Shown: positions 16,951 through 17,846 of the stretch, piece by piece | Layout: each line of letters begins with the position of its first letter | Numbering within the stretch: position 1 is the stretch's first letter | IMG/VR virus record: IMGVR_UViG_638341086_000016 | Direction: 5' to 3' (one strand) | Length of the DNA stretch: 44,207 nucleotides | Source of the DNA: a virus | Lineage: Duplodnaviria; Heunggongvirae; Uroviricota; Caudoviricetes | Notes under the pieces: model-generated | What the model was told of the DNA's origin: nothing | Databases searched by the model: none | What the model saw: the letters and a program-made list of their open reading frames with translations, nothing else | Position numbers and translations under genes: made by a program

Positions 16951-17292
16951 TCAGGGTGCAGAAGGACTAAAGATAAACGTTTTCTTCACGCCTTTACACG
17001 GCCTGTCCTTCTCAAATCGCCATTTTGCCATCGCCTTTACAACCTGCTCATCAAACAGATGGTGCGGCTCTGAACGAATAAACTCAATTCGGGTGACAGT
17101 ACCATCAGCACCAATATCAAACCTCACATCAACCCGTCCCTTTATATAATTTGCCGCTGCATAGGCCGGATATTGTGGTAATGCCTTAACCAACTGTCGG
17201 GGCATATCTGTTTTATGTTGCGTACAGCCCATAACCAGAGAAGACAACAAAATAATTAACGGAAGATTTCTTTTCATTTTCATTCCCCGCAC
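16951..17292 (-). CDS. lipoprotein with TonB-C-terminal-like domain (moron near cos)
   Basis: 113 aa; signal peptide with lipobox LVMGC; C-terminal pattern YP.YA...GRVDVRFDIGADGTVTRIEFIRSEP.HLFDEQVVKAMAKWRF resembles TonB C-terminal domains; about 330 bp non-coding upstream. Confidence 0.5.
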   Translation of the reverse strand: MRGMKMKRNLPLIILLSSLVMGCTQHKTDMPRQLVKALPQYPAYAAANYIKGRVDVRFDIGADGTVTRIEFIRSEPHHLFDEQVVKAMAKWRFEKDRPCKGVKKTFIFSPSAP

Positions 17293-17621
17293 AGATAAAA
17301 ATAAGTCTTATTCTAACAATGCCGCCCTGTCGGTCATCAATCCTCTGCTTAATGGCAACGACAATTATCCGACTTAAATCACAAATCAGACACATGACAT
17401 AACAGGGCTTGCGAGGTAACACATCGTCCTGTTTCTTCCACCATCGCACCGGACTGGCGACTATGAGGGGACAACGCCGCGCTCCGTTAACGCGGTAAAC
17501 CCCGGTGTGTATCGTTTTTGATTATCCCCGCACACTCGCGCAGAGGAGTCTCCCTGTCGGGCTGCGGTCTCTGTTAATGCAGGAATACGGCGACAATACC
17601 GCGCATGGATAATAAGGTCGC

Positions 17622-17846
17622 TCAACACACTGGCTGTAATGCAGCGGATACCATGCGGCATTTAGCGGCATTCATCGTACACTCCACGGTTAGCTCTTCA
17701 TTCGTGGCATTCCCCTGAAAGGTCCGGGAGTGTAATTGCGTACATTTACCACTGAACGAACCTTCAACAAGAACACGACCACGCTGCAAAATACGGAACG
17801 GAATTGTTCCCTGAAAAGGTTCTACGGTTACCCGTAATTTCTTCAT
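17622..17846 (-). CDS. hypothetical protein
   Basis: 74-aa ORF whose ATG overlaps the Rz stop (ATGA); no recognisable family. Confidence 0.35.
   Translation of the reverse strand: MKKLRVTVEPFQGTIPFRILQRGRVLVEGSFSGKCTQLHSRTFQGNATNEELTVECTMNAAKCRMVSAALQPVC

What the first reader, a model, noticed from the sequence alone, without database searches (positions are those of the whole stretch)
16951..17846. Lipoprotein with TonB-C-like domain and an unknown 74-aa gene in the bor position
Downstream of Rz/Rz1, where lambda and Stx phages carry the serum-resistance lipoprotein gene bor, this prophage has an unrelated 74-aa ORF coupled to Rz and a lipoprotein (lipobox LVMGC) whose C-terminal half has a TonB-C-terminal-like pattern, preceded by about 330 bp of non-coding DNA. 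A prophage lipoprotein mimicking a TonB domain could affect TonB-dependent uptake, phage or colicin entry, or virulence.
Basis: partly seen in the sequence, partly recalled or inferred. Interest (0 to 1): 0.45.

Follow-up and report, generated by a model that had tools for sequence, protein, structure and literature searches.

The report
Prophage lipoprotein copying TonB's receptor-binding domain
An E. coli prophage carries a small, selectively maintained gene for an outer-membrane lipoprotein that is essentially just the receptor-binding end of the host protein TonB. It is found in about 30% of complete E. coli genomes, has not been studied experimentally as far as I could find, and most plausibly jams TonB-dependent entry of phages and colicins.

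Summary
Window 16951-17277 (-) encodes a 108-aa protein with a lipoprotein signal peptide (LVMGC, Cys18, Thr at +2). Eight residues after the Cys begins a TonB C-terminal domain (Pfam TonB_C E 9.7e-15), which aligns without gaps to E. coli TonB 153-231. It is under purifying selection (dN/dS 0.12-0.16). It occurs in 1615 of 5426 complete E. coli genomes, named only "TonB family protein". Relatives sit after the lysis genes in Salmonella and Sodalis prophages.

The 74-aa ORF (17622-17846, -) overlaps the Rz stop codon (ATGA). It is a real, fast-evolving gene with a confident all-beta model and no known relative. It lies on an optional ~272-bp cassette.

The "bor position" claim is only half right. 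The 74-aa gene fills the bor/iss slot. The TonB-like gene has its own slot further downstream and often sits next to iss (817 genomes).

About 180 nt of the "non-coding" gap is a conserved, covarying RNA structure that is not in Rfam.

The likeliest mechanism, inferred and not shown, is an outer-membrane-tethered decoy that binds TonB boxes and uncouples receptors from TonB. No experimental paper was found.

The parts
17843..18337 (-). Rz (i-spanin), last gene of the lysis cassette
   Evidence: Pfam Phage_lysis E 2.5e-49. RefSeq 'lysis protein' at the equivalent position in L001.
17932..18117 (-). Rz1 (o-spanin lipoprotein), embedded in Rz in another frame
   Evidence: Pfam Rz1 E 1.7e-21. The phage therefore already has a complete spanin pair.
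17607..17878 (-). Optional ~272-bp cassette carrying the 74-aa gene; it occupies the slot where lambda-like phages carry bor/iss
   Evidence: In most of 80 related loci only about 18 bp stand in its place, and the junction is always at 17606/17607. The cassette also occurs in Stx2 phages that lack the TonB-like gene.
17622..17846 (-). 74-aa gene: cytoplasmic all-beta protein of unknown function, start overlapping the Rz stop (ATGA)
   Evidence: - No Pfam, NCBIfam or PADLOC match; PHROG 2571, unknown function, E 1.5e-26.
- The 74-codon ORF is kept in E. coli and Salmonella down to about 60% identity.
- dN/dS is 0.31-0.47 at dS 0.58-0.75 but 1.5 between close variants.
- AF2 pLDDT 87, beta-sandwich.
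17422..17606 (-). Conserved ~180-nt block, probably a structured RNA in the sense of the late transcript; not part of either gene
   Evidence: - Present in 398 phage records.
- 79-92% identical between TonB-gene clades whose synonymous sites are saturated.
- 40 predicted pairs, 97.4% of cells paired against 33-62% when the partners are slid.
- 10 pairs with compensatory changes, against 3.8±1.2 in shuffles (0/500).
- No Rfam match at E<=1.
17310..17337 (-). Sigma-70-like promoter candidate (ATGACC-16-TAGAAT with TG) about 30 nt upstream of the lipoprotein start
   Evidence: Consensus scan. The number of hits in the region is no higher than in shuffles, so this is weak evidence. The -10 position is retained in clade 2. 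Similar promoter-like sites lie just upstream of the Salmonella and Sodalis homologues, and the Sodalis gene is followed by a terminator.
17224..17277 (-). Lipoprotein signal peptide MKRNLPLIILLSSLVMG|C (Cys18, Thr at +2)
   Evidence: PROSITE-type lipobox rule met. Cys18 is invariant in the 11 lipobox-bearing members aligned (A5). 17 of the 21 sequences checked pass the rule, one more has a canonical LSAC that the strict pattern rejects, two have an ordinary signal peptide, and one long form has a lipobox but a much longer linker. None has Asp at +2.
16966..17202 (-). TonB C-terminal domain (residues 26-104), equivalent to E. coli TonB 153-231
   Evidence: - Pfam TonB_C E 9.7e-15; TIGR01352 55 bits.
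- Ungapped alignment to PDB 1u07, 2gsk, 2grx and 8rd6.
- The AF2 model matches TonB/FusB C-terminal domains in Foldseek with probability 1.0, 36-37% identity.
16951..17277 (-). Whole gene for the 108-aa TonB_C lipoprotein (RefSeq 'TonB family protein', WP_000828068-type)
   Evidence: dN/dS is 0.12-0.16 against clade 2.
16619..16819 (+). Convergent YlcI/YnfO (DUF3950) gene bounding the locus on the terminase side
   Evidence: Pfam DUF3950 E 6.1e-20; NCBIfam YlcI_YnfO_N.

Best explanation
Shown. The gene at 16951-17277 (-) is an accessory prophage gene (a moron), not a phage structural or lysis gene. It encodes a lipoprotein signal peptide, a 7-residue linker, and then a complete TonB C-terminal domain. 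It has no TonB transmembrane anchor and no proline-rich spacer. It is kept by purifying selection and is widespread in Enterobacterales prophages, always after the lysis genes.

Inferred.
- With Thr or Ser at +2, the Lol pathway would place the protein in the inner leaflet of the outer membrane. That holds the domain within a few nanometres of the periplasmic face of TonB-dependent transporters (FhuA, FepA, Cir, BtuB and others).
- There it binds exposed TonB boxes by the same beta-strand pairing that TonB uses (strand beta3, here KKTFIFS). It cannot transmit energy.
- It therefore competes with TonB and lowers TonB-dependent steps: irreversible adsorption of T1/phi80-type phages, import of group B colicins and microcins, and, as a cost, siderophore and B12 uptake.
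- TonB boxes carried by colicins themselves could be trapped in the same way.
- A weak promoter of its own would allow expression in the lysogen. Read-through of the late operon would raise expression during lytic growth.

The 74-aa gene is a separate, optional late-operon gene with no link to this mechanism.
For: - Domain identity. TonB_C E 9.7e-15. Ungapped alignment to TonB 153-231, including chains crystallised bound to BtuB (2gsk) and FhuA (2grx). Foldseek probability 1.0 to the same chains.
- Signature residues. By that alignment the TonB signature residues are kept: Y163, P164, F180, G186, F202, W213, Y215 (as F) and F230. The beta3 segment is present. TonB Q160 is Leu here; from my own knowledge Q160L is a functional suppressor allele of TonB.
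- Anchor. The lipobox rule is met. Cys18 is invariant in the aligned lipobox members and no Asp occurs at +2. The tether is 7-9 residues in the nearer relatives.
- Selection. dN/dS is 0.12-0.16 with dS 1.2-1.7 between clades.
- Accessory nature. Presence/absence varies: 1615 of 5426 genomes. The gene sits in the same post-lysis position beside four different packaging modules: HNH + terminase small/large subunits, Nu1/gpA, DUF1441/gpA and Terminase_4.
- Precedents. Over-produced periplasmic TonB domain inhibits TonB-dependent iron import in E. coli (Howard et al. 2001, as cited in PMC9841981). Llp and Cor are phage outer-membrane lipoproteins that inactivate FhuA from the periplasmic side (bioRxiv 10.64898/2026.03.26.714494).
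Against: - No binding, localisation or phenotype data exist for this family. I found none in 8 literature searches (and 74, which failed on a term that was too short).
- Two TonB residues that contact receptors differ: R166 is Tyr and R158 is Lys.
- Identity to TonB is only about 37%.
- Broad TonB inhibition should be costly in iron-poor hosts, yet the gene sits in 30% of E. coli genomes and next to the virulence marker iss. This argues for low, conditional or target-selective action.
- The promoter evidence is only a consensus match at chance frequency.
- A Fur-box-like site at 17294-17312 scores 13/19, which is not above the background of the window.
- Some family members are chromosomal in Raoultella and Klebsiella, next to lacZ/lacI-like genes, so the family need not be about phages.
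- The AF2 model is of moderate confidence (pLDDT 64).
Confidence: 0.4

Rival explanations
1. TonB sequestration. The lipoprotein pairs with the C-terminal domain of host TonB itself rather than with receptors. TonB C-terminal fragments form dimers. This would pin the scarce TonB molecules to the outer membrane. The phenotypes would match the decoy model but the target would differ.
For: The protein has the same fold as TonB's C-terminal domain. Short TonB fragments crystallise as intertwined dimers (1ihr is among the matches; that they are dimers is my own knowledge). TonB is far less abundant than its receptors (own knowledge), so titrating it would need little protein.
Against: At 37% identity heterodimerisation is not assured. 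There are no data. The family-specific conserved motifs (SEPxHLFD, KWRFE) differ from those of TonB.
Confidence: 0.12
2. Envelope or serum-resistance factor. An outer-membrane lipoprotein whose domain binds peptidoglycan or another envelope protein, strengthening the envelope or changing surface properties, like its neighbours Bor/Iss.
For: It lies next to iss in 817 genomes. It is an outer-membrane lipoprotein moron like Bor. Peptidoglycan association of the TonB C-terminal domain has been reported (own knowledge, not checked here). Chromosomal members exist outside prophages.
Against: No similarity to Bor/Iss: no Pfam hit other than the TonB families. Every residue characteristic of the TonB C-terminal domain is retained, which a generic tether would not need.
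Confidence: 0.15
3. Lysis accessory or spanin-like protein, as the PHROG label 'Rz-like spanin' suggests.
For: PHROG 1267, labelled 'Rz-like spanin', E 1.4e-42. The gene always lies just after the spanin genes.
Against: - The phage already has Rz and Rz1.
- The gene is separated from Rz by the conserved block and a promoter-like site.
- It is absent from most lambdoid phages.
- It has a folded TonB domain, unlike proline-rich o-spanins.
- The same 'Rz-like spanin' label is applied in RefSeq to a frame-inconsistent ORF inside the non-coding block, which shows the label is unreliable in this region.
Confidence: 0.04
4. Decaying fragment of a captured tonB gene with no function (the 2001 EDL933 annotation called it 'partial tonB-like membrane protein').
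For: It covers only the last third of TonB; the old annotation wording is quoted in PhiR47_2.
Against: dN/dS is 0.12-0.16 across saturated synonymous sites. The 108-codon length is conserved. A lipoprotein signal peptide was gained and kept across genera.
Confidence: 0.02

Closest known systems
TonB (E. coli P02929) C-terminal domain, as in PDB 1u07, 2gsk (with BtuB) and 2grx (with FhuA)
   Same: Homologous domain: ungapped over 79 residues at about 37% identity. The YP motif and the conserved aromatic and glycine residues are kept, and the beta3 strand is present.
   Different: No N-terminal transmembrane helix and no Pro-rich spacer, so no link to ExbB/ExbD and no energy transduction. It is anchored to a membrane by a lipid at the opposite end of the periplasm. 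Q160 is Leu, R166 is Tyr, and the last 4 residues are missing. It scores 49-74 bits against NCBIfam TonB equivalog cut-offs of 265-448.
Periplasmically expressed TonB fragments (Howard, Herrmann, Stratilo & Braun 2001, J Bacteriol 183:5885)
   Same: A TonB periplasmic domain uncoupled from the inner membrane. It was reported to inhibit TonB-dependent iron import (as cited in PMC9841981). This is the mechanistic model proposed here.
   Different: Those were laboratory constructs, soluble and over-expressed. This is a natural, lipid-anchored, diverged gene on prophages. I could not read the original paper.
Cor (phi80, HK022, N15, mEp167) and Llp (T5) superinfection-exclusion lipoproteins
   Same: Small phage-encoded outer-membrane lipoproteins that act on a TonB-dependent transporter from the periplasmic side.
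   Different: The fold and sequence are unrelated: Cor/Llp have their own fold, whereas this is a TonB domain. Cor/Llp are specific to FhuA and lock it allosterically. A TonB-box decoy would be generic and would block only TonB-dependent steps. No function has been shown here.
Bor / Iss serum-resistance lipoproteins of lambdoid prophages
   Same: Outer-membrane lipoprotein morons located between Rz and the packaging genes.
   Different: No sequence relationship. Bor/Iss is on the opposite strand and upstream of the conserved block; the TonB-like gene is on the late strand downstream of it. The two often co-occur.

Membership tests
TonB_C domain (Pfam PF03544 / TIGR01352) | Profile score above the curated cut-off | tested here: met
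   PF03544 55.2 bits against 24.6; TIGR01352 55 bits against 27.1.
TonB_C domain (Pfam PF03544 / TIGR01352) | YP motif and conserved core residues (TonB Y163, P164, F180, G186, F202, W213, Y215, F230) | tested here: met
   The ungapped alignment maps them to Y36, P37, F53, G59, F75, W86, F88 and F103. Most are invariant across the short-lipoprotein family.
TonB_C domain (Pfam PF03544 / TIGR01352) | Alpha/beta fold of the TonB C-terminal domain | tested here: met
   AF2 secondary structure is helix-strand-strand-helix-strand. Foldseek probability 1.0 and target-normalised TM 0.56-0.63 to TonB/FusB C-terminal domains. The model is only of moderate confidence (pLDDT 64).
TonB energy transducer (full-length TonB, NCBIfam PRK10819 equivalogs) | N-terminal transmembrane anchor that couples to ExbB/ExbD | tested here: not met
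   The N-terminus is a cleavable lipoprotein signal peptide. The alignment to TonB starts at TonB residue 153.
TonB energy transducer (full-length TonB, NCBIfam PRK10819 equivalogs) | Proline-rich periplasm-spanning spacer | tested here: not met
   Only 7 residues (TQHKTDM) lie between Cys18 and the domain (sequence).
TonB energy transducer (full-length TonB, NCBIfam PRK10819 equivalogs) | Equivalog score cut-off | tested here: not met
   49-74 bits against cut-offs of 265-448.
Bacterial lipoprotein (PROSITE PS51257-type lipobox; Lol sorting) | Basic n-region, uncharged h-region, [LIVMFWSTAG]2-[LIVMFYSTAGCQ]-[AGS]-C | tested here: met
   MKRNLPLIILLSSLVMG-C passes the rule. Met at -2 falls outside the strictest consensus [ASTVI]. 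17 of 21 sequences checked pass; one more has a canonical LSAC; two have an ordinary signal peptide.
Bacterial lipoprotein (PROSITE PS51257-type lipobox; Lol sorting) | No Asp at +2 (outer-membrane sorting in E. coli) | tested here: met
   The +2 residue is T, S, A or G in every lipobox-bearing member checked. Actual localisation is inferred.
Bacterial lipoprotein (PROSITE PS51257-type lipobox; Lol sorting) | Acylation and signal peptidase II cleavage | not testable with these tools
   Needs globomycin sensitivity, palmitate labelling or mass spectrometry.
Bor/Iss (Lambda_Bor) | Sequence similarity to Bor | tested here: not met
   No Bor family among the Pfam hits.
Cor/Llp exclusion lipoproteins | Cor/Llp fold or sequence | tested here: not met
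   The hits are TonB families only.
Cor/Llp exclusion lipoproteins | Blocks infection through a TonB-dependent receptor | not testable with these tools
   Needs plating assays.
o-spanin (Rz1-like), as labelled by PHROG 1267 | Partner of an i-spanin; short proline-rich periplasmic segment; needed for lysis | tested here: not met
   A true Rz1 is present at 17932-18117. This protein has a folded TonB domain and is absent from most related phages.
Moron (autonomous accessory unit in a prophage) | Presence/absence polymorphism between otherwise collinear phages, at a module boundary | tested here: met
Moron (autonomous accessory unit in a prophage) | Own promoter and terminator; expression in the lysogen | tested here: inconclusive
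   Promoter-like sites lie just upstream in the window, the Salmonella locus and the Sodalis locus, and there is a terminator in Sodalis. Counts are at chance level and none was found in clade 2. No transcript data.

The most novel reading that the evidence does not exclude
Lambdoid and other Enterobacterales prophages carry a lipid-anchored copy of TonB's receptor-binding domain as a general anti-TonB device. Parked under the outer membrane, it occupies TonB boxes (or TonB itself). This would give the lysogen broad protection against TonB-dependent phages, group B colicins and microcins. It would be a third, mechanistically distinct class of receptor-level exclusion beside Cor/Llp, one that targets the energy coupling rather than a single receptor. 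It would also be a natural TonB inhibitor present in about 30% of E. coli, often linked to iss in extraintestinal pathogens.
Probability: 0.35. Interest if true: 0.7.

Novelty: new variant of a known kind. Interest (0 to 1): 0.5.

Why it matters
If the decoy mechanism holds, a very common prophage gene would modulate the whole TonB system. That system feeds E. coli iron and vitamin B12, and it is the entry route for many phages, colicins, microcins and siderophore-conjugated antibiotics.

- It could affect phage-therapy host range and susceptibility to colicins, microcins and possibly cefiderocol-type drugs.
- It could affect iron-limited fitness of pathogenic lineages, where the gene travels with iss.
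- It would provide a natural template for TonB inhibitors.

The tests are simple plating and uptake assays with one cloned 327-bp gene.

Separately, the conserved structured RNA between the lysis genes and cos, present in lambda-like and Stx phages and absent from Rfam, is an unexplained feature of a very well-studied group of phages.

Tried and rejected
- Fur regulation. By eye, an AT-rich site at 17294-17312 overlapping the promoter-like -10 looked like a Fur box. It scores 13/19, and 22 positions in the window score as high, so it is not significant.
- Coding potential of the 330-bp gap. ORFs annotated there in other phages ('orf48', 'Rz-like spanin', 37-aa ORFs on the other strand) are in mutually inconsistent frames or show no protein-level constraint. 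Rejected.
- Rfam. No match in 16700-18000 at E<=1.
- PADLOC. No defence-system match for either protein.
- Locus search with a very diverse alignment (A5) failed for lack of conserved stretches. A closer subset worked.
- The original Howard et al. 2001 paper (PMC99666) is not held. It is cited second-hand.
- A strong Fur-like palindrome just after the conserved block in phages lacking the TonB gene looked like a link to iron. It lies directly before a cosQ-like ACGGGT, about 250 bp before the terminase small-subunit gene, so it belongs to the cos region, not to this gene.
- One literature search was badly designed and returned irrelevant papers; another failed on a term that was too short.
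Full report
**Setting**

The window is an E. coli lambdoid prophage with its late genes on the minus strand. Reading in the direction of late transcription, the order is:
- antirepressor-like gene (18566-19261);
- Rz (17843-18337) with Rz1 embedded (17932-18117);
- a 74-aa ORF (17622-17846);
- a 344-bp gap;
- a 108-aa ORF (16951-17277);
- a convergent YlcI/YnfO gene (16619-16819, + strand);
- an HNH endonuclease gene (16212-16577);
- terminase small and large subunits.

**Check of the observation**

- Rz matches Pfam Phage_lysis at E 2.5e-49 and Rz1 matches Pfam Rz1 at E 1.7e-21.
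- The 74-aa ORF starts with an ATG that overlaps the Rz stop codon as ATGA.
- The downstream ORF matches Pfam TonB_C at E 9.7e-15 (55.2 bits, cut-off 24.6) and TIGR01352 at 55 bits (cut-off 27.1).
- Its best matches among solved structures are the C-terminal domains of Salmonella and E. coli TonB (E about 1e-15). The 79-residue alignment has no gaps and equates residues 26-104 with TonB 153-231. Matched chains include those crystallised on BtuB (2gsk) and FhuA (2grx).
- An AlphaFold model from a shallow alignment is only moderately confident (pLDDT 64). It has the expected helix-strand-strand-helix-strand order and matches TonB/FusB C-terminal domains in Foldseek with probability 1.0.

The true start is the ATG at 17277. 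It is preceded by GGGGAA and is the only start shared with a diverged clade. That gives MKRNLPLIILLSSLVMG-C. This meets the PROSITE-type lipobox rule, with Cys18 and Thr at +2.

**What the TonB-like gene is**

It is not a TonB.
- It lacks the transmembrane anchor and the proline-rich spacer.
- It scores 49-74 bits against NCBIfam TonB equivalog cut-offs of 265-448.
- It consists of a lipid anchor, seven residues (TQHKTDM), and then the TonB receptor-binding domain.

By the ungapped alignment the signature residues of that domain are retained:
- TonB Y163-P164, F180, G186, F202, W213 and F230 are unchanged, and Y215 is Phe.
- The beta3 strand, which pairs with TonB boxes in the complexes, is present as KKTFIFS.
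- TonB Q160 is Leu, R158 is Lys and R166 is Tyr.
- That Q160L is a functional suppressor allele of TonB, and that beta3 pairs with the TonB box, is from my own knowledge of the TonB literature. It was not tested here.

The gene is under purifying selection. Against a second E. coli clade (about 70% protein identity), dN/dS is 0.12-0.16 while synonymous sites are near saturation (dS 1.2-1.7). That rules out a decaying 'partial tonB', which is what the 2001 EDL933 annotation called it (wording quoted).

**Distribution**

- The coding sequence is found in 1615 of 5426 complete E. coli genomes. 413 hold the window's clade at 95% identity or more, and about 1200 hold the second clade at about 73% nucleotide identity. 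All listed hits over the gene are annotated only as 'TonB family protein'.
- A full HMMER scan of 1.84 billion representatives finds, beyond E. coli, 10 listed proteins of 107-133 aa at 33-51% identity. Nine carry a lipobox Cys and one (P0099) appears 5'-truncated. Two further short members have an ordinary signal peptide.
- Source names place these in Salmonella, Klebsiella, Gibbsiella, Rahnella, Erwinia and Pantoea. Locus titles add Raoultella and Sodalis.
- Context is prophage in several cases:
  - E. coli clade 2: Rz, then the gene, then Nu1/gpA terminase.
  - Salmonella: DUF2514 protein, then the gene, then HNH and terminase.
  - Sodalis: lysozyme, a 122-aa ORF in the spanin position (no Pfam match), then the gene, then terminase.
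- In Klebsiella aerogenes it lies on an integrase-bearing island.
- In Raoultella and a Klebsiella species it is chromosomal, next to lacZ/lacI-like genes.

So this is a mobile accessory gene that repeatedly lands just after the lysis cassette, beside unrelated packaging modules.

**The 'bor position'**

Comparing 80 related viral contigs and annotated phages gives a consistent map:
- Rz/Rz1;
- slot A;
- a conserved block of about 180 nt;
- slot B;
- (ylcI/ynfO, HNH);
- cos and the terminase small-subunit gene.

Slot A holds bor or iss on the opposite strand, or the 74-aa gene, or about 18 bp of nothing. Slot B holds the TonB-like gene, other genes, or nothing.

In the window the 74-aa gene lies on a ~272-bp cassette (17607-17878). 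Most relatives lack it, and the junction is always at 17606/17607. The same cassette occurs in Stx2 phages that have no TonB-like gene.

The TonB-like gene co-occurs with bor/iss:
- PhiR47_2 has Rz-bor-block-TonB.
- The E. coli type strain has rzpD-iss-block-TonB.
- 817 genomes hold at least 80% of that 1.1-kb iss-to-TonB segment.

The window itself has no bor. Only the 74-aa gene is 'in the bor position'.

**The 74-aa gene**

- It has no Pfam, NCBIfam or PADLOC match. It matches PHROG 2571, which has no known function.
- Homologues of the same 74-codon length occur in E. coli and Salmonella down to about 60% identity.
- At larger distances dN/dS is 0.31-0.47 (dS 0.58-0.75), similar to the neighbouring Rz. 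Between close variants it is about 1.5 (19 non-synonymous against 4 synonymous changes). It is a real gene that evolves fast.
- It has no signal peptide.
- Coupling to Rz is tight here but not universal: the gap is 23-24 bp in two relatives and about 440 bp in another.
- My best reading is a dispensable late-expressed cytoplasmic protein that interacts with a variable partner, for example as a counter-defence or exclusion function. This is a guess with low confidence.

**The gap**

The 344 bp split in two.
- The promoter-proximal 150 bp (17278-17426) are as diverged between clades as the coding sequence (49-66% identity).
- 17427-17606 are 79-92% identical between the same clades.

That conserved block is present in 398 phage records, including lambda-like phages, VT2-Sakai, 933W-type phages, mEp460 and Salmonella phage S107. 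ORFs annotated over it are mutually inconsistent.

On 24 distinct variants RNAalifold predicts 40 pairs in 7 helices. Counting those pairs gives:
- 97.4% of cells form standard pairs, against 33-62% when the partners are slid by 1-3 columns.
- 10 pairs carry compensatory changes, against 1-3 when slid and 3.8±1.2 in shuffles (0 of 500 shuffles reach the observed number).

Frequent U-G pairs are valid only on the late-sense strand. Because the structure was derived from these same sequences, the slide control is somewhat favourable to it. The compensatory counts are the stronger evidence. No Rfam family matches. I cannot say what the element does.

A sigma-70-like site (ATGACC-16-TAGAAT with an upstream TG) lies at 17337-17310, and its -10 position is kept in clade 2. 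Similar sites lie just upstream of the Salmonella and Sodalis genes, and the Sodalis gene is followed by a terminator. Hit counts are at chance level and clade 2 has none by the same scan. An independent promoter is plausible but not shown. A Fur-box-like site near it is not significant.

**Mechanism**

Shown:
- the domain identity;
- the lipoprotein signal;
- the short tether;
- purifying selection;
- the accessory, mobile character.

Inferred:
- That puts a TonB receptor-binding domain permanently beside the periplasmic face of TonB-dependent transporters.
- There it should bind exposed TonB boxes as TonB does, without delivering energy. It would compete with TonB and reduce TonB-dependent phage infection and colicin or microcin import, at some cost in iron and B12 uptake.

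Precedents:
- Over-expressed periplasmic TonB domain inhibits TonB-dependent iron import in E. coli (Howard et al. 2001, as described in PMC9841981).
- A TonB-box pentapeptide reduces colicin killing and phi80 infection (Tuckman and Osburne 1992, same source).
- Llp and Cor are phage outer-membrane lipoproteins that inactivate FhuA from the periplasmic side (bioRxiv 10.64898/2026.03.26.714494).

I put this at about 0.4. Variants and rivals are:
- sequestration of TonB itself, 0.12;
- an envelope or serum-resistance role like its neighbour Iss, 0.15;
- a lysis role, 0.04. The PHROG 'Rz-like spanin' label is unreliable here;
- a functionless relic, 0.02.
- The remainder is an unknown partner.

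The main argument against a strong general block is its cost in iron-poor hosts, given how common the gene is. This suggests low, conditional or selective action.

**What is known**

Public annotation already recognises the domain: 'TonB family protein' in RefSeq, and 'partial tonB-like membrane protein encoded within prophage CP-933N' in older records. Eight full-text searches, one of which failed, found no paper that studies the protein or proposes a function. The library excludes most subscription journals, so this is not proof of absence.

**Verdict**

This is a real, common, selectively maintained prophage gene with an unusual and suggestive architecture. Its function is unknown but directly testable. 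I rate it as a new variant of a known kind (prophage outer-membrane lipoprotein morons and receptor-level exclusion factors), with interest 0.5.

Noticed in passing
window 17422-17606 (minus strand): A block of about 180 nt conserved in 398 lambdoid phage records. It always lies between the lysis cassette (plus bor/iss if present) and cos or the inserted morons. It has covariation-supported RNA structure in the late-transcript sense (7 helices, 10 compensatory pairs, 0/500 shuffles reach that number). It has no Rfam family. Function unknown.
   Followed up: partly
loci L086, L118, L130, L135, L150, L218 and others, 30-40 nt after the block: In phages with nothing in slot B, a palindrome AATGATAACCATTATCATT follows the block. 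It matches the Fur-box consensus at 15-17 of 19 positions. It directly precedes a cosQ-like ACGGGT and lies about 250 bp before the terminase small-subunit gene. I recall the same GATAATCATTATC next to cosQ in lambda. Whether Fur binds at cos is unknown to me.
   Followed up: partly
L112 (E. coli ATCC 11775) 2227-3327, and 817 genomes: The virulence marker iss (increased serum survival) is directly followed by the block and the clade-2 TonB_C lipoprotein gene. The two outer-membrane lipoprotein morons travel together in many strains.
   Followed up: partly
L088, L093 (Raoultella ornithinolytica; Klebsiella sp. R390): Members of the same short TonB_C lipoprotein family sit in a non-phage chromosomal context, between lacI/lacZ-like genes and a DUF1440 gene. 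The family may have a cellular role from which the phage copies derive, or the reverse.
   Followed up: partly
P0034: One database protein fuses a 51-residue DUF1737 N-terminus to the 74-aa protein. In some phages a DUF1737 gene therefore seems to lie directly upstream in the same frame.
   Followed up: no
window 27656-27854 (minus strand): Rfam matches above gathering score to C4 antisense RNA, its a1/b1 targets and isrK. This is a P1/P7-type antisense immunity element inside this lambdoid prophage.
   Followed up: no
window 22951-23137 (-), 36238-36296 (+), 42020-42136 (-), 23987-24062 (-): Rfam and ARAGORN matches: sRNA STnc100, the lambda cIII thermoregulator element, an ALIL pseudoknot (IS3-family frameshift signal, so an insertion sequence lies near 42 kb), and a tRNA-Met gene. 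ARAGORN alone also calls a tRNA-Ala (cgc) at 32756-32838 (+) that Rfam does not support.
   Followed up: no
L096 (Sodalis sp. RH21) 7242-7568: A second small lipoprotein gene (MSMKKMIIPLIFLAVSGC...) with no Pfam match lies about 0.9 kb beyond the TonB_C lipoprotein gene, separated from it by an opposite-strand 115-aa ORF, between the lysis and terminase genes.
   Followed up: no
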